From assembly GCA_012729785.1 (NCBI GenBank), contig JAAYCL010000044.1, forward strand, positions 34,752 to 98,751: a DNA stretch of 64,000 bases, written 5' to 3'. Each line of letters starts with the position of its first letter. Within the stretch, counting starts at the first letter, position 1. Of this stretch, positions 30,805 to 49,799 are shown piece by piece. This stretch comes from Chlamydiota bacterium. GTDB lineage: Bacteria; Auribacterota; Tritonobacteria; UBA1439. The translations under genes were made by a program, and so were the position numbers. Under the pieces are notes generated by a model that was not told where the DNA came from, made no database searches, and saw nothing but the letters and a program-made list of their open reading frames with translations.

Positions 30805-31980
30805 TCAGAGCTGGCCCCTCCGTTTCATGTCGAGCATGCTGAGGAAGAACGAGGAGAAGAAGGTCTGGATGCCGATGATCATCAGGGCCGCCGCAAGCGC
30901 GGCCCTGTTGAGCTCCACGACGGTGATGCTGAAACGGACCTTCACCGCGGTGTGGAAGACATACGCGTCGATGCCGAAGCCGACGAGGAATACGACGCTG
31001 CCGAGCAGCAGGCCTCTCTCCAGACTGAAGCGGCGGTAGAAGCGCGTGATGAACCGTGCGTCGTCCTCGAACTGCGCCTCGTAGGAGTAGGTCTTCGCGT
31101 ACAGGCCGAGCAGGATGATCTGGAAACCCAGGATGGCCAGGACGGTTCCAGCGAGCGAAAAGTGGGTCCCGTAGCCGTGGCCGCCGATCCAGACAAGGCC
31201 GCCGGTGAGCCCGAGGAGCGGGATGAAACCGAGGGCCATGAAGACCGCCCCGGGGACGAAGAACAGGTAGGTGGGGCTGTACATCAGCATGAAGCGCAGG
31301 TGGCGGTAGCCGTCGCTGAAGGTCCTGAGGTGGGGCCTCCCGCTGCGCCCGTCCCGGTGGAGGGTGATCGGTATCTCGGCGATCCGCATCTTGGCCTTGC
31401 ACGCCTTCACGATCATCTCGGAGGCGAACTCCATACCGACGGTTTTGAGGCGGAGCCTGCGGTACGCCTCCTTGGTGAGCGAGCGCATGCCGCAGTGGGC
31501 GTCGGAGACGCGGCCGCCGAAGAAAAGCCGCAGCATCCAGGACAGCACCGGATTACCGAGGTACCGGTGGAGCCAGGGCATCGCCCCCGGTTCGATGGAG
31601 CCCTTGAACCGGGAGCCCATGACCATGTCGAATCCCTGCTGCAACGGGGTGACGAAGCGCCCGACCTCCGACCAGTCGTAGCTGTCGTCGGAGTCGGCCA
31701 TGACGATGTGCCTTCCGCGCGCCTCATCCAGCCCTCGGAGGTAGGCGCTTCCGTACCCCTTGACCGGCTCGCGGACCACGCGGGCTCCGCGCGCGGCGGC
31801 GATCTCCGCGGATCGGTCGGTGGAGCCGTTGTCGACGACGATGACCTCCCAGGGCAGGTTCAGGCGCGTGAGGGCGCGCACCGCCTTCTCCACGCATGTC
31901 CCGATGGTCTCCTCCTCGTTCAGGCACGGCATGACCGCGGAGACCTCAATTTCGCCACGCCTTCCTGCGTCGCTGTTCAA
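30805..31980 (-). CDS. GT2-family glycosyltransferase with C-terminal membrane domain (DPM1/GtrB-like)
   Basis: VSAVMPCLNEEETI...VVDNGSTDRS...MADSDDSYD, followed by a C-terminal domain of 4 TM helices. Confidence 0.85.
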   Translation of the reverse strand: MNSDAGRRGEIEVSAVMPCLNEEETIGTCVEKAVRALTRLNLPWEVIVVDNGSTDRSAEIAAARGARVVREPVKGYGSAYLRGLDEARGRHIVMADSDDSYDWSEVGRFVTPLQQGFDMVMGSRFKGSIEPGAMPWLHRYLGNPVLSWMLRLFFGGRVSDAHCGMRSLTKEAYRRLRLKTVGMEFASEMIVKACKAKMRIAEIPITLHRDGRSGRPHLRTFSDGYRHLRFMLMYSPTYLFFVPGAVFMALGFIPLLGLTGGLVWIGGHGYGTHFSLAGTVLAILGFQIILLGLYAKTYSYEAQFEDDARFITRFYRRFSLERGLLLGSVVFLVGFGIDAYVFHTAVKVRFSITVVELNRAALAAALMIIGIQTFFSSFFLSMLDMKRRGQL

Positions 31981-32138
31981 TGGCGTTCTCGCTTTCTGTG
32001 CGCACGGCGCCGCCCGCGTGCCCGCCGACCCCGTCGCACAAAGATACTACAAACGGCGGCGCGGCGCAATGCGGATAAGGCCATGACGGGGTTCCGGGAA
32101 TGCCCTCTCCACGCCTGTGGCACGCGGTCGCCATATCA

Positions 32139-32164
32139 CGCGGCGTCATGTCGCGCGGCGTCAT
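32139..32164. repeat. Direct repeat CGCGGCGTCAT x2 (4-nt spacer) abutting the -35 box
   Basis: Copies at 32139-32149 and 32154-32164. The second ends in the TTGACA hexamer. Confidence 0.55.
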
Positions 32165-32193
32165 TGACAGGGCGTTCTTGTGTGCGCAATAAT
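32164..32193 (+). promoter_or_regulatory. Sigma70-like promoter: TTGACA -35, 18-nt spacer, AATAAT -10
   Basis: TTGACA 32164-32169; AATAAT 32188-32193. Lies ~57 nt upstream of ATG 32250 (RBS GAGGAG). It is the only perfect -35 hexamer noticed in the intergenic regions. Confidence 0.5.
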
Positions 32194-32249
32194 GCTGTCT
32201 TTGGGCGTGTTCTCCCGGCGCGCATGAGAGGCACGAGGAGTCTCCGTTG

Positions 32250-33494
32250 ATGGGCAGGCGGGCAAGAAGAACGGCGATCTCGTGCGCCTGCGTTCTCCTC
32301 CTCTACTTCGTCTGCGAACTGGTCTCCGTTGCCGGCATGCGGCTCGCCGATCTCAGGCGCGGGTATAGGCTGGAGTTCGGGGTGCCCGTGCTTGATGAGG
32401 AGCGGATGCGGGAGCTCCGGGCGCTGCTCGCGTCCGGGGACGGCGCCCGCGGCATGATCGTGCACGACCCCGACCTGGGATGGAGACTCCGGCCCGGGTA
32501 TTCGGGGGGGGGGCAGCGCACCAACGCCGCCGGCCTCGTGGCGACCCGGGAATACGATCAACGCCCCGCCCCGGGAACGGCGAGGATCGCGGCGTTCGGC
32601 GACTCGTTCACGCAGTGCGTCGTGCCGAACGAGGCGACCTGGGAACAACTGCTCGAGGAATCCTGCCGGGGCATAGAGGTGTTGAATTTCGGCGTCAGCG
32701 CCTACGGCCCCGACCAGGCGTACCTCCGCTACGCGCGCGAGGGGCGGAAGTATCATCCGGGGATCGTGCTCATCGGCTATATGACGGAGAACCTCGCGCG
32801 GCTGGTCAATGTCTTCAGGCCGTACGCGGACCCGATGAATGCCCCCCTCGCGAAGCCCCGGTTCACGCGTGCGGAGGGGCCCCTCGAACTGGTCCCGAAC
32901 CCCCTGGCTGACAGGAATGCCCTCATGGAGCTCCTGTCGTTGAACGAAAACCCCGCGCTCCGGGACCGCCTCGGCCGGCACGATAACTACTACCGGAGGT
33001 ATTATTACCGGCGTCCCCCGCGGCTGGTGCGCTATTCGCCGCTCGCGCGGCTCGCCTTCAGCGTTTTTCTGGTGGGGGACTGGAAGCTGCGGGACCTGAC
33101 CATGACGAACATCCACGCCGCGGACGGCCGCTACAACACCGGGTCGGAGGCGTACCGCCTCCTCGAAGCGCTGCTGCTCCAATGGACGGGGGAGATCGTG
33201 CGCGACGGCGCCGTTCCGGTCGTGCTCGTCTTTCCGCAACGATCCGACATCGAGCGGTGGCGCGGGGGAGAGGGGATGAAGCAGTACGAGCCGCTCCTTG
33301 AGTTTTTGCAGGGGGCGCGGATCGCCTGCATCGATCTTATGGATGCGTTCCCGCCCCGCGAGACGGCCGAGGCGTTCACCGCGGATGGCCACTACAGCGC
33401 GCTCGGCAACCGCCTCGTCGCCGCCCGTGTCGGCGAGGCGCTGGTGCGCCGGGGGCTTGTCGCGGGGCCGTGCCAAGGGATGGGGATGCCGTGA
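32250..33494 (+). CDS. SGNH/GDSL-family hydrolase
   Basis: Block I IAAFGDSFTQC. N-terminal TM anchor. Paralog of the 16189 gene. Confidence 0.8.
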   Translation: MGRRARRTAISCACVLLLYFVCELVSVAGMRLADLRRGYRLEFGVPVLDEERMRELRALLASGDGARGMIVHDPDLGWRLRPGYSGGGQRTNAAGLVATREYDQRPAPGTARIAAFGDSFTQCVVPNEATWEQLLEESCRGIEVLNFGVSAYGPDQAYLRYAREGRKYHPGIVLIGYMTENLARLVNVFRPYADPMNAPLAKPRFTRAEGPLELVPNPLADRNALMELLSLNENPALRDRLGRHDNYYRRYYYRRPPRLVRYSPLARLAFSVFLVGDWKLRDLTMTNIHAADGRYNTGSEAYRLLEALLLQWTGEIVRDGAVPVVLVFPQRSDIERWRGGEGMKQYEPLLEFLQGARIACIDLMDAFPPRETAEAFTADGHYSALGNRLVAARVGEALVRRGLVAGPCQGMGMP

Positions 33495-35173
33495 CGAAGG
33501 CCGGCGCACAACTCACGATGCTCCTCCTCACCGTCGTCGTCGGGGCGGCGATCCTGGCGCCGTATGTGGGGTACCAGGATGTTTTGGACCAGTCGGATCG
33601 CGGGCGGGACCTCTACTGCTTCAAGAAGACGATGGACGGCGCAACGGTCTACAGGGACTACTGGTGGATTTACGGGCCGGCCATGCCGTACTACTACAGC
33701 TTGTTCTACCGGGCGATGGGCGTGAGCGTGCGGAGCGTGCTGGCCGGACAGTGCGTCCTGCTGCTCCTCTGCGGCGTCCTGATCTTCCTGACGGCGGCGC
33801 TTTTCGTTTCGCCGGGCTGCGCCTGTCTCGCCTCGGTCGTCTTCTGGGTGTATTACCCGGATTTTCCCCACACCTACGTCTATACGGGCGCCGTCGCCTG
33901 CATGCTGCTCGCCCTCTACTTCCTTGTCCGTTACATCCGCCGCCCGGGGCTCCCGTCCCTCCTCCTCTGCGCCGCGGCCGCGGCGGTCGCCGGCATGGTC
34001 AAGCTCAATATCGGGGCGGCCCTCTTCTGCGCCTCGCTCGCCGCCGCCTTTGTCGCGGACCTCCTGCGGGAGGGGCTCTGCGGCCTCGGGGGCAGGCTGC
34101 GGCGCTACGCCGCCTCCGCCTCCCTCTTCGGCGGGGGGATTGTCCTCGGCTACCTGCCGTTCACCCGGGGGTTGCCGGGGGTCGTCAGGTCCCAGTCGTT
34201 CCCCTTCTCGAACCCGCAGCGCTCCTCCCTGCCGCCGCTCCTCCCCCGCCTCCGGGGAATCGCGGAGATCGCCGCCGAGCAGTTTTCTCTGGACTGGCGC
34301 TACCCCCTCCTGCTCGCGGTGTGCCTGGCGTGTCTCGCGCGGGGGCTCTGGCTGATCGCGCGGAACAGGCCGATTGCCGCGCCCCGTTCCGAGCTCGGCG
34401 CCGCGATGATCGCCTTTCTGCTCATCGCCCTCTTCTCGATTCACGAATACTTCATGAACATCTTTGCGATTTACTATCAGCTGATCTGGGCCTTCCCCCC
34501 CCTCTACCTCCTCTTCGTCCTCGCCGTGTGGACGGGAACGCGCGGCCTCCCCGCTCTTGCGCGCCGGGCGGTCGCGGCACTGGTCGTTGTCTGCGCGGCG
34601 ACGAGCCTCGCCTCGACCGCGCAAACGATACGGCGCTCCATGGTCCCCGCGCAGCACCTGGGATTCGCGAGGGGCGGGGTGTACCTGAACCCCGCCAACA
34701 ATCCGCCGGAGTGGCTCGCGACCGTCCGGGGCGCCGTGGATTATCTGATGCGCAACGTCGGGAAAGATGAGAAGATAGCCGCGTTTCCCTACGATACCCT
34801 TTACTGCTTCCTGAGTGAGCGCGACAGCGCCATCCGCCAGCAGGAGATTCTGGCGCTGAGCCATCCCACCGAGGAGCAGGAGCGGGAGATCATCGCGTCG
34901 ATGGAGCGGCAGAACGTGAGGTGGGCGGTGCTCTCCAACCTGTATCGCACCACGGAGCCCGGGAAGGGCGCCGGCTTCGGCCTCGTCTGCTGCCGCACGC
35001 TTAGCGGGTATCTCGAGGAGCATTTCGACATCGCGTCGGTTTTCGGGCCGTGGCGCACCGACCCGCCGTGGTGGATCGAGGGGCACGGGGTGGCGATTCT
35101 CCGGAGAAGGGAAATCCCCGGCAGGGAGACGCTCTTCTGGTGGGGGAGCGCAAGGAGGGTGACGGTAAAATGA
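33491..35173 (+). CDS. Polytopic membrane protein with C-terminal soluble domain (unassigned family)
   Basis: GTG 33491 overlaps the upstream stop (GTGA). About 11 TM helices. Alternative ATG at 33518. Confidence 0.6.
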   Translation: MTKAGAQLTMLLLTVVVGAAILAPYVGYQDVLDQSDRGRDLYCFKKTMDGATVYRDYWWIYGPAMPYYYSLFYRAMGVSVRSVLAGQCVLLLLCGVLIFLTAALFVSPGCACLASVVFWVYYPDFPHTYVYTGAVACMLLALYFLVRYIRRPGLPSLLLCAAAAAVAGMVKLNIGAALFCASLAAAFVADLLREGLCGLGGRLRRYAASASLFGGGIVLGYLPFTRGLPGVVRSQSFPFSNPQRSSLPPLLPRLRGIAEIAAEQFSLDWRYPLLLAVCLACLARGLWLIARNRPIAAPRSELGAAMIAFLLIALFSIHEYFMNIFAIYYQLIWAFPPLYLLFVLAVWTGTRGLPALARRAVAALVVVCAATSLASTAQTIRRSMVPAQHLGFARGGVYLNPANNPPEWLATVRGAVDYLMRNVGKDEKIAAFPYDTLYCFLSERDSAIRQQEILALSHPTEEQEREIIASMERQNVRWAVLSNLYRTTEPGKGAGFGLVCCRTLSGYLEEHFDIASVFGPWRTDPPWWIEGHGVAILRRREIPGRETLFWWGSARRVTVK

Positions 35174-36288
35174 AGGTGCTGATACGCCCCGCCCGCTACG
35201 ACGCCATCGGCGGCCCTATCGAGGAGATCCTCGACTCGTTTTCGCTTCGATGGAAGGGGGCGCGGGTCCTCGTCAAGCCGAACGTGCTCGGGCCGTGGAC
35301 CGCGGATGCGGGCGTCACCACGCACCCGTCCGTGGTCGCGGCGCTCGTGCGCGCCCTTGCGGCGCGCGGCGTTGGGAAAATCATGGTGGGGGACAACCCC
35401 GGTCTTCGCGGCTACGCTGAGAACGAGCGCTGCTTCAGGACCTGCGGTCTGATGGAGGCGGCGGGGGGGCAGTACGTCAACCTTGGGAGGAGCCCGGTCA
35501 AGGTGAAATTCAACTCCCGCTATGCCTCCGAGGTCACCGTCTCGAAGGAGGTGCTCGACTGCGATATCCTCGTCTCGGTCCCCAAGTTCAAGACGCACGC
35601 CCTCACCATGCTCACGGGCGCGGTGAAGAACACCTACGGCTACATCGTGGGGGCGGAGAAGGCGCTCCTTCACGCCGCGGCGACCTCCCCCGAGAGGTTC
35701 GGCGAGGTCGTGGCGGATGTCTACGCCGTGCGCCCCCCGGACCTGTCGATCATGGACGCGGTGGTCTGCATGGAGGGGAAGGGGCCGTCGGGCGGGGCGC
35801 TTCGGCAGGCGGGGAAGCTGATCGCCTCGGATAACGCCGTCTGCCTCGACGCCGTGATGTGCTCCATGGCGGGCGTCGCGCCCGAGAAGATCCCCACGCT
35901 CAGGATCGCCCACGCGCGCGGGTTCGGGGAGATCGACCTCTCGAAAATCGAGGTGGATGGCCCTCTCGAACCGATCAGGGATTTCTCGATGCCGGGCACC
36001 TTCACGGCCGGACTCTTCGGATACATCATCCATCGTTTCGTCTTCCCCCGGCTCCGCACGAAGCCGCGGTTCAATATGCGCACATGCACCAGGTGCAAGG
36101 CCTGCTACGAGCTGTGCCCCGTGAAGGCGATCTCCTGGGACGACGGGCCGGTGCTCAAGCGGGAGAAATGCATCTCCTGCTTCTGCTGCATGGAGAGCTG
36201 CCCCTCCAACGCCGTGGAGCTGAGGGGCGTGCTCTACAAGGTCAGGGATGCCCTGACGAAAAGGACCGCCGGCGGCCCCTGCGGGTGA
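35170..36288 (+). CDS. DUF362-domain protein with C-terminal 2x[4Fe-4S] ferredoxin-type motifs
   Basis: ATGA overlap with the upstream gene. DUF362-like core (VLVKPNVLGPW...ILVSVPKFKTHALTMLTGAVKN). The C-terminal motifs are CTRCKACYELCP and CISCFCCMESCP. Confidence 0.75.
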   Translation: MKVLIRPARYDAIGGPIEEILDSFSLRWKGARVLVKPNVLGPWTADAGVTTHPSVVAALVRALAARGVGKIMVGDNPGLRGYAENERCFRTCGLMEAAGGQYVNLGRSPVKVKFNSRYASEVTVSKEVLDCDILVSVPKFKTHALTMLTGAVKNTYGYIVGAEKALLHAAATSPERFGEVVADVYAVRPPDLSIMDAVVCMEGKGPSGGALRQAGKLIASDNAVCLDAVMCSMAGVAPEKIPTLRIAHARGFGEIDLSKIEVDGPLEPIRDFSMPGTFTAGLFGYIIHRFVFPRLRTKPRFNMRTCTRCKACYELCPVKAISWDDGPVLKREKCISCFCCMESCPSNAVELRGVLYKVRDALTKRTAGGPCG

Positions 36289-36377
36289 GCGCATCGGCTG
36301 GGCCCGGTTCACCCTGCGCCACCGGGAGACGCATCAGAAGAGCCGGTGCCCGGGTAGCGCATGGTCCCCCAAACGAA

Positions 36378-37844
36378 ATGAAGATTCTTTTGCTGCAGCC
36401 GAGATTTACCTATTCGCGCTATATGCAGATCGCAGTGGAGATGCCGCTGGGCCTCTGCTCCCTCGCGGCGGTCGCCCGGCAGCGCGGCCACACGGTGGTG
36501 ATTGTCGACTGTCTCGCGGAGGGGGTTGCGAACGCGGTGAGGGAGGGTGACCTCACCACCTACGGCCTCCCGGATGAGGAGATCGAAAGAAGAATCAACG
36601 AGTTCCACCCCGACCTGGTCGGAGTGAGCTGCCTCTTCAGCGCGCAGTACGGGAACGCACGCCGGCTCTGCGAGCTCACGAAACGCGTGGCGCCGCGCGC
36701 CATCACGGTGATGGGCGGGATGCACCCCACGGTCAAGCCCCGCGAGGTTCTGTCCGAGGAGTCGGTGGATTTCATCTTCCAGGGCGAGTCCGACATCACC
36801 TTCTCCGACTTCGCCGACGCCCTGGAGCGCGGAGACGGGTACGGCGACATCGACGGTCTCGGCTACAAGCGGGATGGGGTCCTCGTGATCAACAGGAAGG
36901 AGCACTTCATCGCGGACCTCGACGCCCTCCCGTTCCCCGCCAGGGATCTGCTGAAGGTCGACTGCTACTACCGGGCGGCGCGGGCACACGGCTTTGTCTT
37001 GACGCACAGTAAGAACATGAATCTGATCACCAGCCGCGGCTGCCCGGCGCGGTGCATCTTCTGCACCATCTTCCTCGTATGGGGAAGGCGGTTCAGGGCG
37101 CGGAGCCCCGAGAACGTCCTCGCGGAGCTCGAGCAGATGAAACGGGATTTCGGGGTCCGGCACGTGCAGTTTGAGGACGACAACCTGACATACGACATCG
37201 GCCGCGCAAAGAGGATCTTCAGGGGGATGATCGACCGGCGTCTGGGCCTCGCGTGGAACACCCCCAACGGTGTCGCGCTCTGGTCGCTGGACGAGGAGGC
37301 GCTCGATCTGATGAAACGGGCCGGGTGCTACTACGTCAAGTTTGCCATCGAATCCGGGAACCAGCGGGTGCTCTCCCGGGTGATAAAGAAGCCCCAGGAC
37401 CTTGCGCGCGCCCGGCGACTCATCGAGTATGCGCGCTCCCTGGGGATGATGGTCGGCTCGTTCTTTGTGGTGGGCCTCCCCGGGGAGACGAGGGAGGAGA
37501 TGCAGGATTCGTTCGACTTCCGGTACACGACACGGCTGGACTACACCGTCTACATCGCCGCCAAACCGGAGCACGGGACCGAGCTCCGGCGGCTGTGCGA
37601 AGAAAAGGGGTATCTCCGGAAGCACACCGACCTGGAACTCGAGGGGGGCGAGGGGTTCATCGAGACGCCGGAGTTTACGCCCGAGTGGCTCAGAAACAAG
37701 ATCGCACGGGAAAACAAGCGATACCTGCGCTTCCTCATCACACACCAGCCGGGCACCCTCCTCTCGCTCGGGTGGCTTATCTTCAAGCGGGACCCGCTGA
37801 TCGTCGTGAAACACCTTGCGCACACGCTGGGGTTGACAAGATGA
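36378..37844 (+). CDS. Cobalamin-binding (class B) radical SAM protein
   Basis: MKILLLQPRF... (B12-binding domain), then TSRGCPARCIFC. Confidence 0.85.
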   Translation: MKILLLQPRFTYSRYMQIAVEMPLGLCSLAAVARQRGHTVVIVDCLAEGVANAVREGDLTTYGLPDEEIERRINEFHPDLVGVSCLFSAQYGNARRLCELTKRVAPRAITVMGGMHPTVKPREVLSEESVDFIFQGESDITFSDFADALERGDGYGDIDGLGYKRDGVLVINRKEHFIADLDALPFPARDLLKVDCYYRAARAHGFVLTHSKNMNLITSRGCPARCIFCTIFLVWGRRFRARSPENVLAELEQMKRDFGVRHVQFEDDNLTYDIGRAKRIFRGMIDRRLGLAWNTPNGVALWSLDEEALDLMKRAGCYYVKFAIESGNQRVLSRVIKKPQDLARARRLIEYARSLGMMVGSFFVVGLPGETREEMQDSFDFRYTTRLDYTVYIAAKPEHGTELRRLCEEKGYLRKHTDLELEGGEGFIETPEFTPEWLRNKIARENKRYLRFLITHQPGTLLSLGWLIFKRDPLIVVKHLAHTLGLTR

Positions 37845-37959
37845 CGCCGCACCGTGAGAGAATGAGGCTCCGTCGCGGCTTTTGCCGCGGGTGCCTCCCC
37901 CGGCGCGATCGAGGAGGCACGGCGGTCTGGGCGGCCGTTGCGCCTGGAGGGTGGACTCG

Positions 37960-39081
37960 ATGAACGAGTGTGTCCTGCACCGGCCCGGAGCCGGGGGCGA
38001 GGTGGCCGTCGTCGCCGCGCGCAAGGCGTGCCGTTACCACCGGCCCGGGGAGTCGTATCCGGCCGTTCGGATGACGCCGGACGGGCTCTGTCCATTTGCG
38101 TTCCATCTCCTCTATCCCGACTGCCTTGCCATGCTGAGCAGGGGAAGATACCCGGTGGAGGGGGGGAGGGAGATTTGCCGCCTCCAGTGCCCGTTCGCGG
38201 GCGAGGGGGTCGAGTTCGGCGTGTTCCGGATCCCGCGGAAACGGACCTTTTTCGGGAAACTGGAACTCCTCGCCAGGAAGACCGCGGACCTCTTCACGCC
38301 GGTCGAACTGCTCGAATACGGTATCGCCATCGAGGTGACCAAGGCGGGCGCCGGTTGTCCACATAAGTACCGGGCGGGGGACATGTTCGAGATGAACATC
38401 AAGGGGAAGAAGGAACTGTGTCCCGCGGCATTCTACACGATCTTGCCCTTTTATCCGGCCGCGCCCCATGGGGAGAAGGGGGCGGGCCTCTGCATCTCGT
38501 GCGCCGACTACTGCACGGATATCGTCTTCTCCCTCGGCGGCGGGGATCCCGGATCCTTCTTCGGGGAATGCGATGCGTACGGGGACATCGCGGTGCGGGT
38601 GGAGGGGGCGCGCGGGGGAGGAACGGGGAGCCCGCGGGAAGGAACCGAATATCCCGTGAACGCCCTCATCGACGCGATGCGCATCCCCTGCTTTTCCGCG
38701 CTCGCGGCCGCATTCCCCTATATGCGCACGCTGGAGCGCGGGGGCTCGCTCGGGTTTCTCACCCGCGACAGGGATGCGGCGGGGATCCAGTGCCCGAACC
38801 CGTCGGTTCGCGTGCGGATGTTCGTCCGCCGGGACCGGGCGACAGGAAGCTTTCGGCTGGACGTGCACGGCCGCGACGGCGTCTGCCCGAAAAATCTCCA
38901 ACCGGGCAGGAGCTATCCGCTGCCGCCGCTGGAGGGGGGGGCGCTCCCCCTTCGGCTCCTCGCGACTCTCTATCCGTATATCATGCGTCTGAAAGCGGAT
39001 GCCGCCGGGGCGCCGCGCACGGTGCGCTGTCCGGTCGAAGCCGGCGCGGCGGATGTGCGGGTATTCCGGGGGAGGGGATAG
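37960..39081 (+). CDS. Cys-rich protein composed of four tandem TIGR04076-like repeats
   Basis: Repeated motif pairs: LCPFAFHLLYP...CRLQCPFAGEGVEFGVFRIPR; CPHKYRAGDMFEM...LCPAAFYTILPFY...CISCADYCTDIVFSLG; IPCFSALAAAFPYM...IQCPNPSVRVRMFVRR; LRLLATLYPYIM...VRCPVEAGAADVRVFR. These match my recollection of the TIGR04076 family motif (C.HAF.SLLP...QCPDP...V.F), which I cannot verify here. Confidence 0.6.
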   Translation: MNECVLHRPGAGGEVAVVAARKACRYHRPGESYPAVRMTPDGLCPFAFHLLYPDCLAMLSRGRYPVEGGREICRLQCPFAGEGVEFGVFRIPRKRTFFGKLELLARKTADLFTPVELLEYGIAIEVTKAGAGCPHKYRAGDMFEMNIKGKKELCPAAFYTILPFYPAAPHGEKGAGLCISCADYCTDIVFSLGGGDPGSFFGECDAYGDIAVRVEGARGGGTGSPREGTEYPVNALIDAMRIPCFSALAAAFPYMRTLERGGSLGFLTRDRDAAGIQCPNPSVRVRMFVRRDRATGSFRLDVHGRDGVCPKNLQPGRSYPLPPLEGGALPLRLLATLYPYIMRLKADAAGAPRTVRCPVEAGAADVRVFRGRG

Positions 39082-40143
39082 ATGGCCGTGAAAGGGTCTC
39101 TCATCAGGCACGTTCGCACCTTTGGGGCGATCCTGAGATCGCGCCTGCTGCACAGGCGGATACCGGTGATTGCGAATATCCTGATCACGAATCGGTGCAA
39201 CCTCCGGTGCTTCTACTGCTACCCAGATTCGTTCAACCGCGCCCTTGAGGACATGCCGCTCGCCGACTTCAAGAGGATCATCGACCTTGTGCACGCGAAA
39301 GGCTCCCGCGTGGTCGTCCTGCTGGGCGGGGAGCCGCTGATCAGGAAGGATATCGGGGAGTTCATCGGCTACGTGCGCGCGAAAGGGATGGCGTGCGAGG
39401 TCGTGACGAACGGATTCTTCGTCCCGCAGCGCCTCGACGCCCTGAAGAACGCGGACAGCGTCTGCGTGAGCATCGACGGCGACGAGGAGGCGAACGACAA
39501 GAACCGCGGGAAGGGCAGCTTCCGGAAGGCGATGGAGGCGATCGAGCTGCTCCAGGCGAGCGGGATCCACACAAGGATCAAGGCGGTGATCACGAGGAAC
39601 AACCTCCGCTCCATCGACTTCTTGGCCCGCCTCGCGCGGGAGAGGGGGATGGTGCTGATGGCGATCATCCCGACGACCTATGAAGACAGGGTCTATCCGG
39701 ATGGCGTCGCCGCGCAGTGGTTGAGCCAGGAGGAGTACCGCGCCTTCGTCATAAAGCTGATCGGGCTCAAGAAGGACGGCTACCCGATCTTCCACTCCTA
39801 CCGCGCCCTGCGCTACTGCAGGGACTGGCCCTACCCGTACGACGAGATCGTAACGGGGAAGCGCCTGAAGAACGGCGCGCGGGCTATCCCGTGCACGGCA
39901 TGGGAGTACGGCATATTCATCGACGTGGACGGAAGGTTCTTCATGTCGTGCCTTAAGACGTTCGACATCCAGGGGAGGAAGATTCTGGAAACCGATTTCG
40001 ACGACTGGTGGATATCGCAGCGGCGCTTCGGCTGCACCACCTGCGCCCTGCTGCCGAACATCGAGAAGTCGCTCGTCTACAACATGCATCCGGGGGCGCT
40101 GTGGAACATGGTGCGGATGGCCCTCTGGCGCGGGGGCCGGTGA
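39082..40143 (+). CDS. Radical SAM / SPASM-twitch domain protein
   Basis: Starts 1 nt after the TIGR04076-like gene stop. ITNRCNLRCFYCY is the CxxxCxxC motif. C-terminal Cys IPCTAWEYG...FMSC...FGCTTCALLP. Confidence 0.85.
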   Translation: MAVKGSLIRHVRTFGAILRSRLLHRRIPVIANILITNRCNLRCFYCYPDSFNRALEDMPLADFKRIIDLVHAKGSRVVVLLGGEPLIRKDIGEFIGYVRAKGMACEVVTNGFFVPQRLDALKNADSVCVSIDGDEEANDKNRGKGSFRKAMEAIELLQASGIHTRIKAVITRNNLRSIDFLARLARERGMVLMAIIPTTYEDRVYPDGVAAQWLSQEEYRAFVIKLIGLKKDGYPIFHSYRALRYCRDWPYPYDEIVTGKRLKNGARAIPCTAWEYGIFIDVDGRFFMSCLKTFDIQGRKILETDFDDWWISQRRFGCTTCALLPNIEKSLVYNMHPGALWNMVRMALWRGGR

Positions 40144-40150
40144 TCGCCGC

Positions 40151-42178
40151 GTGGAGGGCATCGTCGCCGTGAAAAGAGCACTCGTCGTCATCGCGCTGGC
40201 TGTTCTCGCCGCGCCGGTGGCCTATAATGTCGCCACGTCGTATGTCGGGGATGAAGATCTCTGGCGCCTCGCGCGCAGTCTGGAGTTGACGCTCAAGGAC
40301 GCCCTCCTGCAGAGCAACTACCATGTCCCTGGCTGGAAGCATTTTCGGCCGACGCAGTACGCCGCGTTTTTCCTGCTCGCCCGCCTCTTCGGGAGGGCCG
40401 CATGGGCGTACCATCTCTCGTTCTTCTCCGTCCATGTCCTCAGCGCGGTCTTCCTCTATCTCCTGACCCTCCGGTTGACGCACAACAGGGTGTGCGCCCT
40501 TGTCGCAGGCACCCTGTTCGCCTTCCATCAGGCCAACACGGAGATCCTGTGCGTGCTCGCATCCTTTCATTACCTGCTGTTGGTTTTTTTCTCCATCCTC
40601 ACCCTGTTCTTTCTCGCGCGGCATCTCGATCGGGGTCGCATGTCGGATCATGCGCTCTCGGTCCTGTGGTGCATCCTCGGGCTCCTCTCCGACACCCCGG
40701 GGGTCATTCTCATGCCGTTCGTGCTCCTGCTGGCGGAGTTGTTCTACCCCGCCAAACTGACCCTGCGGAGAAGGATTTGGCTGTACTCGAGCTACGCGGT
40801 CCCTGTGTGCGCCTTTGTATTCGTCCGCCGGCTGCTGGTACCCGCCCCCCTGGTCGGGGCGAGCCATATCGCCGACGTTTCGCATATCATTGCGAACTGC
40901 CGCATGATCGTCCGCGCCGTCTTCCTGCCGTACGACACCATGTGTCACCCCCCGTATGGGGGCGTCTTCCTGGCGTTCTCCGTTTTAATCGGGTGCGCGT
41001 ATGCAGGCGCCTTCCTTCCGTTCATCCGCCGGGGCGGGCTGCGCAACAAGCTCTTTCTCTTCTCCGCTATCTGTTTCTCTCTCTACGTGCTCAGCGCGGG
41101 CAACTTCTTCGGGCACGAGAGGATGTGCAGTATGGCAATCCCGTTCTACGCGCTCCTTATGGCATCGCTGTTCTGCAACGGCTATGAGGACACTGGACGG
41201 CTGTATAGATTCGCCACGAGTGCTCTCTCTGCAATGCTCATGCTGAACAACTACTCCCTTCTGCTTTTGAGGACACATGACTGGGCCAGGGCGGGACAGA
41301 TAAACAAGAAGGTGATGGAGATCTTCGTCCGCGGCTCGGATGAGGCCGCAGGCAGGAAGATCCATACCGTCGGCTTCCACGAGGTCCGGCTCTGGTTCCT
41401 TCGGGGGAAGCCGATCGTCGGTGATGCGGGCGAGATGTACCGCTGGTGCCATTGGTGGAACGGGAAGGATCGCGCGCTCGATGAGACCTATTTCAGGGAG
41501 TGGAGCGGCTACCCGGAGATTCTCCGTGCGTACGCGTACGGTCGGGGGGTGGTGAGGGACGATGATCTGATCGTCGCGCTTGAAAAGCGGAAGGAATACG
41601 GCGTCTACTCGTTCGCCGTGAGGGCCGACCGCGCCGAGAACGCCCTTGTCGGCCGGCGGAAGCACGTCAAGGCGCCGCGCGAGTCGTCCCCCATCAGGGT
41701 CAACTTCCAATGCTTCAACACCCTCTCCATCCCGATGGAGGGTTTCGAGATCGACGAGGGGAGGAGCTACCAGCCCTGGCGGGGGTATGGATGGGACGGG
41801 GAGTTCATCGGGAGGGACGGCATCTGGGACAAGTGGACCGTGGTGGATATCGACCGCAGGAGCGTTTCGGAGCACCTCAGGGACACGTACGTGTTCACCG
41901 ACAGGGGGAAGGCCACCTGGACTATTGACCTCGACAACGGCCCCTATCGCGTGGATCTCGGATGGTGCGATCCGATCTTCCGGAGAGGCCCGCAACGCGT
42001 GGCGATCGAGGGGAAGGTTGTAGCGAGCGCCGGGCCGCTGGAGAGGGACACCCTGTTCTCCGTCGAGAACGTCCCCGTGGAGGTGCGCGACGGGAACCTG
42101 ACCATGGAACTTATGCCCATGCCGCCGGCATCGAGCGCCATCATCAACTACATCATCATAAGAAAAGGCGCCGAGTAG
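40151..42178 (+). CDS. Membrane protein (about 9 TM helices) with ~300-aa C-terminal beta-rich soluble domain
   Basis: GTG 40151 with a hydrophobic N-terminal half. The C-terminal half (WRGYGWDGEFIGRDGIWDKW...) is Trp/Gly-rich and carbohydrate-binding-like. Confidence 0.65.
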   Translation: MEGIVAVKRALVVIALAVLAAPVAYNVATSYVGDEDLWRLARSLELTLKDALLQSNYHVPGWKHFRPTQYAAFFLLARLFGRAAWAYHLSFFSVHVLSAVFLYLLTLRLTHNRVCALVAGTLFAFHQANTEILCVLASFHYLLLVFFSILTLFFLARHLDRGRMSDHALSVLWCILGLLSDTPGVILMPFVLLLAELFYPAKLTLRRRIWLYSSYAVPVCAFVFVRRLLVPAPLVGASHIADVSHIIANCRMIVRAVFLPYDTMCHPPYGGVFLAFSVLIGCAYAGAFLPFIRRGGLRNKLFLFSAICFSLYVLSAGNFFGHERMCSMAIPFYALLMASLFCNGYEDTGRLYRFATSALSAMLMLNNYSLLLLRTHDWARAGQINKKVMEIFVRGSDEAAGRKIHTVGFHEVRLWFLRGKPIVGDAGEMYRWCHWWNGKDRALDETYFREWSGYPEILRAYAYGRGVVRDDDLIVALEKRKEYGVYSFAVRADRAENALVGRRKHVKAPRESSPIRVNFQCFNTLSIPMEGFEIDEGRSYQPWRGYGWDGEFIGRDGIWDKWTVVDIDRRSVSEHLRDTYVFTDRGKATWTIDLDNGPYRVDLGWCDPIFRRGPQRVAIEGKVVASAGPLERDTLFSVENVPVEVRDGNLTMELMPMPPASSAIINYIIIRKGAE

Positions 42179-42237
42179 GTGCGGCGCGGACCGGATATGC
42201 GCCCGTTGAAACTTGTTCAGAACGCGAGGCGGACACA

Positions 42238-43776
42238 GTGACCGGACCCATCGCGCTCTTCTCCGTCAGCGACCTTCGAAATATCGCCGAATTCGGAACA
42301 ATATTCATCAAGAACGGTTGGCGGGTGGTGGCCACGCCGGACGCCTACGGCGCCCTCAGGACCGCCGGCATCCCCGCGGTCTGCATCGACGAGTTCACGG
42401 GCACCGTGGAACGGTACTCGTTTCCCCCCACGCTCCATCCGAAGGTGGAGGCGGCGCTGACCGCGCCGGGATCGGGGGAGCGCATAGAACTCGTGTACGA
42501 CATCCCGTATCCCCTCGCGCAGGGGAACGACGTGGGCGGGATGACGCTGCTCGCGCTGGCGGTGAAGGGGGGGCGCATCGCCGTGTCGGCGCACGAGGAT
42601 ATGGCCCGTGTCGCGGCGATGGTGAAGGAGCGCGGCGCCGTCCGCGCCGACGAGCGGGAGCGCCTCGCCGCGAAGGCGCTGCGTCTCATCGAAGGCCACT
42701 ATGGCGCCCTTCTCGACCGAACGGAAATACCTCCTCGCGCCGGCATCCGCGGCGTCGAGCAGACGCGGCTCGCCCACGGTGAGAACCCCTACCAGGAACC
42801 CGCCTCCCTGTTCGCCGCATGCCCCGGCAACGACGACCCGCTCGCCCTGCATCGGTTCGAACGGATTTCCGGAGAGACGCCGTGTTTCACCAACATGGCC
42901 GACCTCGACAGTGTCGTCGCCACCCTGTGCCGTCTCGCCGGGGCCTACCGGCGGCTCGGCGGCGGCCTCCCGCACATCGCCGTGGCGGCCAAGCACGGCA
43001 ACGCCTGCGGCCTGTCGGCGGACCGGACGGACCCGCTCGAGGCCATCGAGGGGGCGCTCTGGGGCGACCCGGCGGCGGTCTGGGGGGGGGAGGTCGTCGT
43101 CACCTTCGAACTGGACGGCGCGCGCGCCGAGCGTCTCCTGCGGAGCGCGCGGAGAGGGGAACTCCACGGGAGCCCCGGCTGGATGCTCGACGTCGTCGCC
43201 GCCCCGGCGTTCTCGGGCGATGCGGTCGAGATTCTCGGGAAGAGGGCGCGGCGGAAGCTGTTTCTGAACCCCGCCCTCGCCGATCCACCCCCCCCGGCGG
43301 ACCGTTGGAGCTATCGGGGCGTCAGGGGCGGCTTCCTCAGGCAGCCGCACCCGTCCTACCTTCTCGACCTCGGCGAGTTGGAGTGGCCCTCGGGGATGTT
43401 CGACGCGGCGTCGCTCGACGACCTTCTCATCGCCTGGGCGGCCGCGTACACCTCGAATCACGGAGGGAACGAGGTGGCGCTCTCCGCAAACCGGGCGCTC
43501 ATCGGCGTCGGCGGAGGCCCCTCCACCGTCGCGGCAACCGAGACCGCCGTCGCGCGGGCGCATGCGCACGGGCACGCCACGGCGGGCGCGGCGTTCGCCG
43601 CCGACGCCTTCTTCCCGTTCACCGATGCGCCGCGGCTCCTCGCCGCGGCGGGGTGCGCCTGCGGCCTCGTCCCCCGGGGCGGGCAAAACGAGGGGGAGGT
43701 CCGCTCCTTCTTCTCCACGCACGGCGTCAGGGTCGGCTATCTCCCGGAGCGGTGCCGGGGATTCTGCAGGCACTAG
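42238..43776 (+). CDS. Divergent PurH-like protein (MGS-like domain + AICAR-transformylase-like domain)
   Basis: N-terminus ALFSVSDLRNIAEFGTIFIKNGWRVVATPDAYGALRTAGIPAVCIDEFTG resembles an MGS domain. C-terminus AFAADAFFPFTDAP...GLVPRGGQNEGEV...FSTHGVRVGYLPERCRGFCRH resembles the PurH C-terminus (SDAFFPF...GG.RD.EV...TG.RHFRH). Confidence 0.6.
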   Translation: MTGPIALFSVSDLRNIAEFGTIFIKNGWRVVATPDAYGALRTAGIPAVCIDEFTGTVERYSFPPTLHPKVEAALTAPGSGERIELVYDIPYPLAQGNDVGGMTLLALAVKGGRIAVSAHEDMARVAAMVKERGAVRADERERLAAKALRLIEGHYGALLDRTEIPPRAGIRGVEQTRLAHGENPYQEPASLFAACPGNDDPLALHRFERISGETPCFTNMADLDSVVATLCRLAGAYRRLGGGLPHIAVAAKHGNACGLSADRTDPLEAIEGALWGDPAAVWGGEVVVTFELDGARAERLLRSARRGELHGSPGWMLDVVAAPAFSGDAVEILGKRARRKLFLNPALADPPPPADRWSYRGVRGGFLRQPHPSYLLDLGELEWPSGMFDAASLDDLLIAWAAAYTSNHGGNEVALSANRALIGVGGGPSTVAATETAVARAHAHGHATAGAAFAADAFFPFTDAPRLLAAAGCACGLVPRGGQNEGEVRSFFSTHGVRVGYLPERCRGFCRH

Positions 43777-43835
43777 GGACGGGGTGGCGGGTGGCGCGAG
43801 GTAGATGCTATACTTGCGCGTCCGGAGGGTTGATC

Positions 43836-44771
43836 ATGATGAAGGTTCTCTTGACCGGGGGGGCGGGGTATATCGGCTCGGTGCTCACCGGGCGCCTTCT
43901 CGCGCGCGGGATGGACGTCGCCGTCGTGGACAAGCTCATCTACCGCCAGACCAGCCTGCTTCAGTACTTCGACAACCCGCGCTTCTCCTTCGTCAACGGC
44001 GACGTGCGGGACGAGCGGCTGATGCGGGACCTCGTCCGGGACAGGGACGTCATCCTCCCCCTCGCGGCCATTGTGGGCGCGCCTGCCTGCGCGCGGGACC
44101 CGGAGTCGAGCACGTCCATCAATCTGCACGCGGTGGCGATGCTCGCCAAGATCAGTTCCGCGGGCCAGGCGGTGATCTACCCCACCACGAACAGCGGCTA
44201 CGGGACGACCTCCGGCGAGGAGTTCTGCACCGAGGAGACCCCGCTCGCCCCCATCTCCCTCTACGGCAGGGACAAGGTGGAGGCGGAGCGGATCCTGCTC
44301 GAGCGGGGCAATGCCGTCACGCTGCGCTTCGCGACCGTCTTCGGCGTGTCGCCGCGGATGCGGCTGGACCTCCTGGTCAACGACTTCACCTTCCGCGCGG
44401 TGCGGGATCGCTTCCTGGTGATCTTCGAGAAGCAGTTCAAGCGCAACTTCCTGCACGTCCTGGACGCCGCGGACTGCTTCGTCTTCTGCATCGAACAGTT
44501 CGCGCAGATGAAGGGCGAACCGTACAACGTCGGCCTCAACGAGGCGAACATCTCCAAGGAGGAGCTCGCCCTCGCGATCAAGAGGCGGGTCCCCGAACTG
44601 TACATCCACTTCGCGGAGGTCGGCTCGGACCCCGACAAGAGAAACTACGTCGTCTCGAACGACAAGATCAACAGGAAGGGGTTTGTGGCGTCCCACGGCC
44701 TGGACGAGGGCATCCGGCAGCTCATCCGGGCGTACGCGATGATCGGGAAATCCGAGATGTACAACTGCTGA
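43836..44771 (+). CDS. NAD-dependent sugar epimerase/dehydratase (SDR family)
   Basis: MMKVLLTGGAGYIGSVL Rossmann motif. 311 aa. RBS GGAGGG. Confidence 0.85.
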   Translation: MMKVLLTGGAGYIGSVLTGRLLARGMDVAVVDKLIYRQTSLLQYFDNPRFSFVNGDVRDERLMRDLVRDRDVILPLAAIVGAPACARDPESSTSINLHAVAMLAKISSAGQAVIYPTTNSGYGTTSGEEFCTEETPLAPISLYGRDKVEAERILLERGNAVTLRFATVFGVSPRMRLDLLVNDFTFRAVRDRFLVIFEKQFKRNFLHVLDAADCFVFCIEQFAQMKGEPYNVGLNEANISKEELALAIKRRVPELYIHFAEVGSDPDKRNYVVSNDKINRKGFVASHGLDEGIRQLIRAYAMIGKSEMYNC

Positions 44772-44785
44772 AGGCGGGGGGAACG

Positions 44786-48358: not shown

Positions 48359-48372
48359 CGCGGAAGGCGGAT

Positions 48373-49104: not shown

Positions 49105-49245
49105 ACGGCTCGGGGGGCGCGGGCATGCGCGCCGCCGCAACCTCAACGGCGGCGTCTTGCTCGACGGGGTGGTGCGAGGTCCCGTTCCTCATAGCTGTTC
49201 TCATCCGCGCTCGTCGCGCTCTTTTTCTTCCTGTGCCTCTCCGGC

Positions 49246-49692: not shown

Positions 49693-49799
49693 TATGTGCT
49701 CGGTCGGGTGCGCGGCGAGCGGCGTTGCGGCGCCTGGATCCGGGTATCCCCCGCGTTGACGCGCATTTCGCTCCGTCGGGCGCGCGCCATATCCGCCGT

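What the first reader, a model, noticed from the sequence alone, without database searches (positions are those of the whole stretch)
35170..40143. Sub-cluster DUF362 Fe-S protein, B12-rSAM, tandem TIGR04076-like Cys-rich protein, then rSAM-SPASM
The 4Fe-4S-containing DUF362 protein is coupled to the preceding gene by ATGA. A class-B rSAM follows. Then comes a 373-aa protein built of four Cys-rich repeats, followed 1 nt later by a SPASM/twitch rSAM. A Cys-rich repetitive protein sitting immediately upstream of a SPASM enzyme resembles a substrate/maturase pair, either a peptide or a metallo-cofactor scaffold. Alternatively it is an electron-transfer module feeding the radical enzymes.
Basis: partly seen in the sequence, partly recalled or inferred. 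Interest (0 to 1): 0.8.

Follow-up and report, generated by a model that had tools for sequence, protein, structure and literature searches.

The report
Conserved radical-SAM sugar-tailoring module, Cys-repeat partner
The four genes are real and correctly identified, but the Cys-rich repeat protein is a stably folded four-domain partner of a sugar-type radical SAM enzyme in a conserved, uncharacterised glycan-tailoring module, not a peptide substrate awaiting maturation.

Summary
The genes are DUF362 plus a 2x[4Fe-4S] ferredoxin (35170-36288), a class-B B12 radical SAM (rSAM) (36378-37844), a 373-aa protein of four TIGR04076 repeats (37960-39081), and an rSAM starting directly after its stop codon (39082-40143).

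Corrections:
- The last enzyme has a four-Cys twitch-type C-terminus, not a seven-Cys SPASM domain. Its nearest solved relative by sequence and by fold is BlsE, a nucleoside-sugar decarboxylase.
- The B12 rSAM is a variable passenger.

Across 16 non-redundant loci (GC 35-67%, several phyla), the multi-repeat TIGR04076 protein sits next to a G4-family rSAM in 13. DUF362-ferredoxin is present in 8 and the PurH-like gene in 9. Elsewhere the repeat protein is split 2+2 around the rSAM, or fused to DUF362-ferredoxin or to a short-chain dehydrogenase.

AlphaFold gives one compact body (pLDDT 91, pTM 0.92) with no whole-protein match among solved structures. One repeat weakly resembles the XdhC N-terminal domain.

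My best reading is a dedicated partner subunit of the twitch rSAM, probably binding Fe-S or another metal, inside a 64-kb envelope-glycan cluster with 13 rSAM genes in a Candidatus Auribacterota MAG. The RiPP-like substrate reading is not supported. The function remains untested.

The parts
32164..32193 (+). Sigma-70-like promoter match (TTGACA-18-AATAAT, 11 of 12) in front of the + strand gene run 32247-49692
   Evidence: It is the only promoter-like site in 31500-50000. This is a consensus match only, and the promoter type in this phylum is unknown.
32247..33494 (+). SGNH/AlgX-like protein, first gene of the run. It is conserved upstream of the module in the Auribacterota-type loci.
   Evidence: Weak Pfam ALGX and Lipase_GDSL_2 hits. 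It is 60-62% identical in L001, L004 and L006.
33491..35173 (+). PMT_2-like membrane glycosyltransferase (GT-C type). Its stop codon overlaps the G1 start (ATGA).
   Evidence: Pfam PMT_2 at 20 bits, below the cutoff. It is 63-81% identical in L001, L004 and L006. The overlap is shown.
35170..36288 (+). G1: DUF362 domain (residues 33-231) plus a C-terminal 2x[4Fe-4S] ferredoxin domain (residues about 297-352)
   Evidence: PF04015 at 173.6 bits and Fer4 families. Motifs CTRCKACYELCP and CISCFCCMESCP. It lies next to the repeat protein in 7 loci and is fused to TIGR04076 repeats in P0159/L030.
36378..37844 (+). G2: class-B (B12-binding) radical SAM enzyme. It is a variable passenger, not part of the conserved core.
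   Evidence: B12-binding plus Radical_SAM. The best NCBIfam hit, Sden_1168, scores 254 bits against a cutoff of 575. The gene is absent at this position in L003, L004, L006 and L009, and replaced by a G4 paralogue in L001.
37960..39081 (+). G3: 373-aa protein of four TIGR04076-type repeats
   Evidence: TIGR04076 at 71.9 bits against a cutoff of 33. The start is supported by conserved M1 and C4 in homologues. AF2 pLDDT 91.1, pTM 0.92. NCBI names it 'TIGR04076 family protein', NLW95172.1.
37999..38244 (+). G3 repeat 1 (residues 14-95), with all three signature Cys (C24, C44, C77)
38317..38547 (+). G3 repeat 2 (residues 120-196), with all three signature Cys (C133, C154, C181)
38572..38835 (+). 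G3 repeat 3 (residues 205-292). The first signature Cys is lost; C244 and C278 are invariant.
   Evidence: This is the best-scoring stretch against TIGR04076.
38845..39078 (+). G3 repeat 4 (residues 296-373). C309 is invariant, the second signature Cys is lost, and the third (C357) is variable.
39082..40143 (+). G4: radical SAM enzyme with a twitch-type C-terminal domain (C271-x18-C290-x27-C318-x2-C321). It starts directly after the G3 stop codon.
40151..42178 (+). G5: PMT_2-like membrane protein, a variable insertion between G4 and the PurH-like gene
   Evidence: Weak PMT_2 hit. It is present in L006, L010 and L011, and absent in L001, L003 and L004.
42238..43776 (+). G6: divergent PurH-like protein (AICARFT_IMPCHas), a conserved member of the module
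   Evidence: PF01808 at 105.6 bits. NCBIfam PurH at 154 bits against a cutoff of 402. The KH dyad 'AAKHGNACG' and the motif 'ADAFFPF' are retained in the alignment to T. maritima PurH 1zcz. The GTG start at 42238 is fixed by comparison with homologue N-termini. It is found in 9 of 16 loci.

Best explanation
G1 (DUF362-ferredoxin), G3 (four TIGR04076 repeats), G4 (twitch radical SAM) and G6 (PurH-like) form a conserved tailoring module. It is embedded in ABC-transporter-type envelope-glycan clusters of uncultivated anaerobes.

G4 is the radical enzyme. It cleaves SAM at its CxxxCxxC cluster, abstracts a hydrogen from a small-molecule substrate, and uses its four-Cys auxiliary cluster for the redox step. 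The substrate is most likely a nucleotide- or nucleoside-linked sugar, as for its closest solved relative BlsE.

G3 is not the substrate. It is a rigid pseudo-tetrameric protein whose repeats each carry a three-Cys site (C...CPxAF...CP[D/N]). I propose that it forms a 1:1 complex with G4 as a dedicated accessory subunit. It most probably carries Fe-S or other metal centres that pass electrons between the G1 ferredoxin domain and G4, or that hold the substrate.

The DUF362 domain of G1, the PurH-like G6 and, in other genomes, a fused short-chain dehydrogenase would carry out the adjacent non-radical steps on the same intermediate.

Shown here: gene identities, repeat architecture, conserved synteny, gene fusions and splits, a confident compact fold, and the twitch-type Cys pattern.

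Inferred: metal binding by G3, physical complex formation, direction of electron flow, and the sugar nature of the substrate.
For: **Synteny.** There are 16 non-redundant loci with a multi-repeat TIGR04076 protein, spanning GC 35-67% and including Auribacterota, Magnetococcales and unclassified MAGs.
- A G4-family rSAM is adjacent or one gene away in 13.
- DUF362-ferredoxin is present in 8.
- The PurH-like gene is present in 9.
- Nine loci (five distinct sequences) with single-domain TIGR04076 proteins (L018-L026) have none of these neighbours.

**Coupling.** The G3 stop codon abuts the G4 start codon in the window, in L001 and in L004.

**Rosetta-stone evidence.**
- P0159 is TIGR04076 repeats fused to DUF362 and ferredoxin.
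- Seven 50%-identity clusters are short-chain dehydrogenase fused to TIGR04076 repeats (four repeats where checked).
- In L028 the R1R2 and R3R4 halves flank the rSAM gene. In L029 they are two adjacent genes next to an rSAM, a PurH-like gene and an SDR.

**Fold.** AF2 gives pLDDT 91.1 and pTM 0.92 for one compact body.

**Cys pattern.**
- Nine Cys are at least 90% conserved over 47 homologues down to 20% identity.
- The signature is three Cys per repeat, two of them in CP motifs.
- G3 has 4.3% Cys, equal to the ferredoxin-bearing G1 and twice the window mean.

**G4.**
- Seven conserved Cys (six invariant, C318 in 99%): three for the SAM cluster and four in a C-x18-C...C-x2-C arrangement. This fits the definition of a twitch domain as a truncated SPASM domain with one auxiliary cluster (PMC9012708).

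**Context.** GT2, GT4 and PMT_2 glycosyltransferases, a Wzm/Wzt-like ABC transporter, NDP-sugar epimerases/dehydratases, a nucleotidyltransferase and a GHMP kinase. The context is similar in L012, L031 and L032.
Against: - No direct evidence that G3 binds any metal.
- Two repeats in this lineage have lost a signature Cys. This is awkward if each repeat needs its own full site.
- Fusion to a short-chain dehydrogenase, a hydride-transfer enzyme, fits a substrate-handling role at least as well as an electron-relay role.
- L027 has DUF362 next to a G4-like rSAM without any TIGR04076 protein, so the partner is not universally required.
- L016 has the repeat protein and the PurH-like gene but no rSAM within 7.4 kb.
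Confidence: 0.45

Rival explanations
1. Substrate/maturase pair. G4 post-translationally modifies G3, for example by Cys-derived crosslinks or oxidation, and the modified protein or a fragment of it is the product.
For: - Stop-start abutment of G3 and G4 and conserved adjacency.
- G3 is Cys-rich.
Against: - G3 is 373 aa and confidently folded as one body, with conservation spread over its whole length rather than a leader plus a variable core.
- It occurs as a domain fused to enzymes.
- G4 has no N-terminal recognition domain.
- No protease or peptide exporter lies nearby, and all contexts are glycan clusters.
- The CP motifs of G3 do not fit the sulfatase C-x-P-x-R motif (sequence; the motif itself is from my own knowledge).
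Confidence: 0.1
2. Cofactor scaffold or chaperone. G3 is a four-fold XdhC-like carrier. G4 (rSAM), G6 (PurH-like, nucleotide-binding) and G1 (DUF362, in the same Pfam clan as the LarA nickel-pincer enzymes) assemble or deliver a nucleotide-derived or metal-containing prosthetic group on G3, for use by other enzymes of the cluster.
For: - DUF362 shares Pfam clan CL0471 with LarA DUF2088 (PMC11770544).
- G6 keeps the PurH catalytic KH dyad.
- Close relatives of G4 act on nucleotides or nucleosides: BlsE, viperin, MoaA.
- L016 has a nucleoside phosphorylase gene next to the repeat protein and the PurH-like gene.
Against: - The XdhC resemblance is weak, covers one repeat only, and has no sequence-level support.
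- The module is always embedded among glycosyltransferases and sugar-nucleotide enzymes rather than near a candidate client enzyme.
- No metal-insertion or sulfur-transfer genes were seen in the window.
Confidence: 0.15
3. G3 is itself a catalytic or substrate-binding subunit. One example would be an Fe-S dehydratase-type site with an open iron; another would be a non-redox sugar-nucleotide-binding platform. It would work in series with an SDR, DUF362 and PurH-like enzyme, with G4 as just one more enzyme of the pathway.
For: - Three-Cys sites leave a fourth coordination position free.
- Recurrent fusion to short-chain dehydrogenases in seven clusters, and SDR genes nearby in L015 and L029.
- A conserved His or Tyr after the first Cys and an Asp or Asn after the third.
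Against: - No fold or sequence similarity to any known enzyme.
- Degenerate sites in R3 and R4 of the window protein.
- The specific, tight adjacency to one rSAM family, rather than to the SDR or other enzymes, argues for a partner role.
Confidence: 0.2
4. General electron-supply module. G1 and G3 together are a low-potential reductase system that feeds all 13 radical SAM enzymes of the cluster.
For: - The 2x[4Fe-4S] domain in G1.
- The Cys-rich G3.
- The very high density of rSAM genes in the window.
Against: - G3 tracks one particular rSAM family (G4) even in clusters that hold many others.
- The 200-residue DUF362 domain and the PurH-like partner are not needed for electron supply.
- The second rSAM block of the window (52554-60429) has no such genes, since hmmsearch finds a single TIGR04076 protein in the window.
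Confidence: 0.1

Closest known systems
BlsE (cytosylglucuronate decarboxylase, blasticidin S pathway; PDB 7vob)
   Different: Only 19% identical to G4. From my own knowledge, BlsE works without a TIGR04076-type partner and sits in a nucleoside-antibiotic cluster, not an envelope-glycan cluster. The G4 substrate is unknown.
BtrN (twitch radical SAM 2-deoxy-scyllo-inosamine dehydrogenase)
   Same: It is the textbook twitch enzyme acting on a carbohydrate-like substrate, with an auxiliary [4Fe-4S] cluster bound by four Cys (PMC9012708). G4 likewise has four conserved C-terminal Cys, three invariant and one in 99% of homologues.
SPASM/twitch peptide and protein maturases (SkfB, SuiB, anSME, PqqE)
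   Different: From my own knowledge, most of these carry a peptide-recognition domain and a seven-Cys SPASM motif, or act on short precursors or unfolded sulfatase motifs. G4 has neither the extra domain nor the seven Cys. G3 is a large folded protein.
TIGR04076 family (uncharacterised proteins matched by a 91-position model)
   Same: Each G3 repeat matches this model, and the whole protein scores above the curated cutoff. The three-Cys signature is shared with single-domain members.
   Different: G3 has four copies fused into one rigid body. Only the multi-repeat subfamily shows the rSAM, DUF362 and PurH-like neighbourhood. The only two papers in the library that mention the family report no experimental test of its function.
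XdhC/CoxI-family protein (PDB 2we7, 3on5)
   Different: There is no sequence-level relationship. Only about 68 residues match. XdhC proteins are not four-fold repeats. From my own knowledge they carry a Rossmann-type second domain that G3 lacks.
PurH (AICAR transformylase/IMP cyclohydrolase)
   Same: G6 matches AICARFT_IMPCHas and aligns over nearly its full length to T. maritima PurH. The KH dyad and the DAFFPF motif are retained.
   Different: G6 scores far below the PurH equivalog cutoff (154 against 402 bits). It sits in glycan clusters rather than purine operons. It is probably a paralogue with another acceptor.

Membership tests
TIGR04076 family | Score above the curated NCBIfam cutoff | tested here: met
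   71.9 bits against a cutoff of 33, E 4.8e-20, three matched stretches
TIGR04076 family | Three-Cys signature (Ca ... Cb in CPxAF ... Cc in CP[D/N]) in each domain | tested here: inconclusive
   The signature is complete in R1 and R2. R3 lacks Ca and R4 lacks Cb in the window protein. All three Cys are present in all four repeats of more distant homologues.
DUF362 (PF04015) | Full-length match above the Pfam gathering score | tested here: met
   173.6 bits against 24, profile positions 1-199 of 200
2x[4Fe-4S] bacterial-type ferredoxin domain | Two CxxCxxCxxxCP motifs | tested here: met
   CTRCKACYELCP and CISCFCCMESCP in G1. Fer4 families hit.
Class B (B12-binding) radical SAM | N-terminal B12-binding domain plus a radical SAM core with CxxxCxxC | tested here: met
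   PF02310 at 83 bits and PF04055 at 83.7 bits. CPARCIFC in the G2 sequence.
Named class-B equivalogs (Sden_1168 P-methyltransferase, HpnJ, BchE and others) | Score above the curated equivalog cutoff | tested here: not met
   The best hit scores 254 bits against a cutoff of 575, and all others are also below their cutoffs.
SPASM domain radical SAM | Seven-Cys motif binding two auxiliary clusters; match to PF13186 | tested here: not met
   No PF13186 hit at E<=0.01. Only four C-terminal Cys are conserved in 117 homologues.
Twitch domain radical SAM | Truncated SPASM domain with Cys ligands for one auxiliary cluster; fold similar to known twitch enzymes | tested here: met
RiPP precursor/maturase pair | Short precursor with a leader and a variable core | tested here: not met
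   G3 is 373 aa with pLDDT 91 as one body. Invariant residues are spread over its whole length.
RiPP precursor/maturase pair | Peptide-recognition (RRE/PqqD-like) domain on or near the rSAM | tested here: not met
   The G4 rSAM core starts at residue 33 after one helix. No such gene was found among the neighbours.
PurH (bifunctional AICAR transformylase/IMP cyclohydrolase) | Equivalog-level score; catalytic Lys-His dyad | tested here: inconclusive
   Pfam AICARFT_IMPCHas at 105.6 bits is above its cutoff. NCBIfam PurH at 154 bits is below its cutoff of 402. The KH dyad is retained.
XdhC/CoxI family | Sequence match to the family; two-domain architecture | tested here: not met
LarA (nickel-pincer) superfamily | DUF2088-type domain with cofactor-binding residues | not tested
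   Only the clan relationship between DUF362 and DUF2088 is known, from PMC11770544. I did not examine residues or the fold of G1.

The most novel reading that the evidence does not exclude
Multi-repeat TIGR04076 proteins are a new class of multi-site cysteine-ligated metal or Fe-S proteins with a fold not yet seen in solved structures. They act as obligate partners of a BlsE-like twitch radical SAM family. Together with DUF362-ferredoxin and a PurH paralogue, they would carry out a previously undescribed radical modification of a nucleotide-linked sugar in the envelope glycans of uncultivated anaerobes. If so, this would assign a first function to two widespread unknown families, TIGR04076 and DUF362.
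Probability: 0.3. Interest if true: 0.75.

Novelty: new variant of a known kind. Interest (0 to 1): 0.6.

Why it matters
TIGR04076 and DUF362 are widespread families with no assigned function. Here both are tied, by conserved gene order, gene fusion and gene fission, to one family of sugar-type radical SAM enzymes and to a PurH paralogue. This gives a concrete, testable four-protein system: co-express, purify anaerobically, look for metal centres and a complex, then feed sugar nucleotides.

The finding also shows that a Cys-rich gene next to a SPASM/twitch enzyme should not automatically be read as a RiPP precursor.

The surrounding 64-kb locus has 13 radical SAM genes among glycosyltransferases. 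This points to unusually heavy radical chemistry on a cell-envelope glycan in Candidatus Auribacterota, a phylum known only from metagenomes.

Tried and rejected
- **Sequence search of G3 against the PDB.** Neither the whole protein nor a profile of the single repeat found anything.
- **Foldseek of the G3 model against the PDB.** Nothing below E 0.56.
- **AlphaFold-database fold library.** Not available on the machine.
- **Word-indexed homologue search with the 47-sequence profile.** It returned only the close set plus one extra, because of the candidate cap.
- **First metagenome scan with the 47-sequence alignment.** It failed for lack of a conserved stretch. I repeated it with 11 sequences.
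- **Literature.**
  - Only two papers mention TIGR04076, and neither has functional data.
  - The DUF362 papers give only the clan link to LarA and a CBM9 fusion.
  - The main Auribacterota paper mentions none of the four terms searched (radical SAM, glycosyltransferase, DUF362, mannosyltransferase).
  - A search for rSAM-rich glycan clusters found nothing relevant.
- **Possible rSAM fusions.** I checked whether the 675-aa members of the G4 90% cluster were rSAM fusions. They are PMT_2 proteins clustered there in error.
- **Sulfatase-type formylglycine motif in G3.** I considered it and rejected it. The conserved Cys are followed directly by Pro (C-P), not C-x-P-x-R.
- **Cys geometry.** I could not measure Cys-Cys distances because model coordinates are not returned.

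Full report
**1. What is in the sequence**

The window is 62-71% GC, so most long ORFs are shadows. Third-position GC, with the GC1>GC2 criterion, singles out one coding frame at each place. Between 32247 and 49692 all real genes lie on the + strand. The four genes of the finding are:
- G1, 35170-36288, 372 aa.
- G2, 36378-37844, 488 aa.
- G3, 37960-39081, 373 aa.
- G4, 39082-40143, 353 aa.

The ATG of G1 overlaps the TGA of the preceding PMT_2-like gene (ATGA at 35170-35173). The ATG of G4 follows the TAG of G3 with no spacer.

The G3 start at 37960 is supported by conservation of Met1 and Cys4 in all close homologues.

**2. Domain identities**

- G1 is DUF362 (PF04015, E 7e-51) followed by two CxxCxxCxxxCP motifs.
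- G2 is a class-B radical SAM (rSAM) enzyme, with a B12-binding domain and a Radical_SAM domain. It reaches no NCBIfam equivalog cutoff.
- G3 has no Pfam match. It matches NCBIfam TIGR04076, a 91-position model, at 71.9 bits against a cutoff of 33, in three stretches. NCBI already names it 'TIGR04076 family protein' (NLW95172.1, MCC6450984.1). The organism is a Candidatus Auribacterota (Aureabacteria) MAG, first labelled Chlamydiae.
- Self-alignment of G3 shows four repeats at residues 14-95, 120-196, 205-292 and 296-373.
- Aligning repeats from many homologues defines a three-Cys signature: Ca, then Cb in CPxAF, then Cc in CP[D/N]. In the window protein R3 has lost Ca and R4 has lost Cb. More distant homologues and the split forms keep all twelve Cys.
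- G3 is 4.3% Cys, twice the window mean and equal to the ferredoxin-bearing G1.

**3. The last enzyme is twitch-type, not full SPASM**

- Pfam SPASM does not hit G4, although it does hit three other rSAM genes of the window.
- In 117 homologues the conserved Cys are C39, C43 and C46 (the SAM cluster) plus C271, C290, C318 and C321; all are invariant except C318, present in 99%. This makes one four-Cys site, as in a twitch domain, which is a truncated SPASM domain holding one auxiliary cluster (PMC9012708).
- The best PDB sequence hit is BlsE, cytosylglucuronate decarboxylase (E 4e-13).
- G4 has only one helix before the rSAM core, so it has no peptide-recognition domain.

**4. The repeat protein is a folded protein, and its family is wider than first seen**

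- The word-indexed search found only seven close relatives.
- An exhaustive HMMER search of 1.84 billion representatives found 327 clusters with E<=0.001. Many are about 350-400 aa (four repeats) or about 190 aa (two repeats).
- With a 47-sequence alignment, AF2 gives pLDDT 91.1 and pTM 0.92 for a single compact body.
- Five Cys are invariant and four more are at least 90% conserved across the 47 sequences, down to 20% identity.

**5. Conserved neighbourhood**

I collected 16 non-redundant loci carrying a multi-repeat TIGR04076 protein. They have GC 35-67% and come from Auribacterota, Magnetococcales and unclassified MAGs.

- A G4-family rSAM is adjacent or one gene away in 13. In the four neighbours whose Cys positions I listed (L001, L031 x2, L032) the C-terminal C-x17/18-C ... 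C-x2-C pattern is kept. One further short contig shows an rSAM fragment.
- DUF362-ferredoxin is present in 8.
- A PurH-like gene is present in 9.
- The core order in the Auribacterota-type loci is DUF362-ferredoxin, repeat protein, rSAM, PurH-like.
- The B12 rSAM G2 is absent from that slot in L003, L004, L006 and L009. In L001 it is replaced by a G4 paralogue.
- The PMT_2-like G5 is likewise a variable insertion.
- The PurH-like G6 starts at 42238 (GTG), judged from homologue N-termini. It keeps the KH dyad and the DAFFPF motif of PurH but scores far below the PurH equivalog cutoff.
- Loci that hold only a single-domain TIGR04076 protein (L018-L026) have none of these neighbours.

**6. Fusions and fissions**

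- P0159 fuses TIGR04076 repeats to DUF362 and ferredoxin. Seven clusters fuse a short-chain dehydrogenase to the repeats.
- Two of the dehydrogenase fusions were looked up. Both sit directly after a G4-family rSAM. One is followed by a PurH-like gene, and the other lies near a Wzm/Wzt transporter.
- In L028 the R1R2 and R3R4 halves are separate genes flanking the rSAM.
- In L029 the two halves are adjacent genes between an rSAM and an SDR, with a PurH-like gene upstream.

These events link G1, G3 and G4 functionally. They also suggest that the working unit is a tetrad of repeats.

**7. Context**

The whole window is one glycan-type locus. It contains:
- Eight class-B rSAM genes and five SPASM/twitch-type rSAM genes.
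- Six to seven PMT_2 (GT-C) membrane glycosyltransferases.
- GT2 and GT4 enzymes.
- A Wzm/Wzt-like ABC transporter.
- SGNH hydrolases.
- Three NDP-sugar epimerase/dehydratase homologues, a nucleotidyltransferase and a GHMP kinase.

Distant loci have the same flavour. A single promoter-like site (11 of 12 matches) precedes the gene run at 32164-32193.

**8. Interpretation**

The data support a conserved four-protein tailoring module acting on a small molecule, most likely a nucleotide- or nucleoside-linked sugar. G4 is the radical enzyme.

G3 is best read as its dedicated partner subunit. The reasons are:
- The tight and specific adjacency to one rSAM family.
- The rigid fold.
- The conserved three-Cys CP-type sites.
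- The fusions to redox enzymes.

Metal or Fe-S binding by G3 is an inference, because I could not inspect the model coordinates.

The peptide substrate/maturase reading fails on four counts: size, fold and conservation pattern of G3; the lack of a recognition domain in G4; the fusions; and the genomic context. A G4-dependent modification of G3 is not strictly excluded.

Three other readings remain open, and I rank them below the partner model:
- A cofactor-scaffold role, based on the XdhC-like repeat, the LarA-clan DUF362 and the nucleotide-type relatives.
- A catalytic or substrate-binding role for G3.
- A general electron-supply role.

**9. Novelty and score**

All four families are already annotated by name, but TIGR04076 and DUF362 have no known function. 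I found no paper describing this module.

I rate it a new variant of a known kind: a radical SAM tailoring cassette with an unusual, structurally new accessory protein. Interest is 0.6. The association is robust and makes two unknown families testable, but no mechanism is demonstrated.

Noticed in passing
window 1-64000: The whole window is one glycan-type locus with 13 radical SAM genes. Eight are class B: 5485, 26771c, 29351c, 36378, 53630, 56193, 57563 and 59005. Five are SPASM/twitch-type: 11548, 25652c, 39082, 52554 and 55091. They lie among six to seven PMT_2 (GT-C) genes, GT2 and GT4 genes, a Wzm/Wzt-like transporter and sugar-nucleotide enzymes. This is an unusually high density of radical enzymes for a polysaccharide cluster.
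   Followed up: partly
window 52554-61706: A second radical SAM block contains a G4 paralogue (52554-53633, 32% identical). A B12 rSAM, a SPASM rSAM, three more B12 rSAM genes and a flavin amine oxidase follow it. This block has no TIGR04076, DUF362 or PurH-like gene.
   Followed up: partly
L028 6436-8512 and L029 1732-3916: In two distant genomes the four-repeat protein is split into an R1R2 half and an R3R4 half. In L028 the halves flank the rSAM gene. In L029 (Magnetococcales) they are adjacent genes. About 190-aa two-repeat proteins are common in the family, which suggests that the four-repeat form arose by fusion of a heterodimer.
   Followed up: partly
L016 2675-3484: A PNP_UDP_1 nucleoside phosphorylase gene lies directly after the four-repeat protein, with the PurH-like gene nearby and no rSAM within the 7.4-kb contig. 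This hints at a nucleoside or nucleotide substrate.
   Followed up: no
window 23499-25682: A 727-aa protein has an N-terminal ADP-ribosylglycohydrolase domain (E 1e-43) and about 400 further residues with no Pfam match. It is an odd member of a glycan cluster.
   Followed up: no
window 2549-5401: A 950-aa fusion of a PMT_2 membrane glycosyltransferase with a C-terminal NHL-repeat beta-propeller.
   Followed up: no
window 9213-11513: A Wzt-like ABC ATPase has a long C-terminal extension that weakly matches the alpha-L-arabinofuranosidase C-terminal domain. This may be the glycan-recognition domain of the exporter.
   Followed up: no
window 49246-49692: A 148-aa hydrophobic ORF with 6.1% Cys and no Pfam match lies at the end of the + strand gene run. 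It may be a fragment of a membrane protein.
   Followed up: no
window 32164-32193: The only sigma-70-like promoter match in 31500-50000 (TTGACA, 18 nt, AATAAT) sits in the divergent gap in front of the gene run that contains the module.
   Followed up: no
protein cluster of P0008: The 90%-identity cluster of the G4 rSAM also lists 675-aa and 481-aa members. These are homologues of the neighbouring PMT_2-like gene G5, not rSAM fusions. This looks like a clustering artefact in the database.
   Followed up: yes
window 11548-13907: The SPASM rSAM gene (11548-12765) and the following GT4 gene (called from 12519) overlap by about 250 nt in my GC3-based calls. The GT4 start is probably further downstream.
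   Followed up: no
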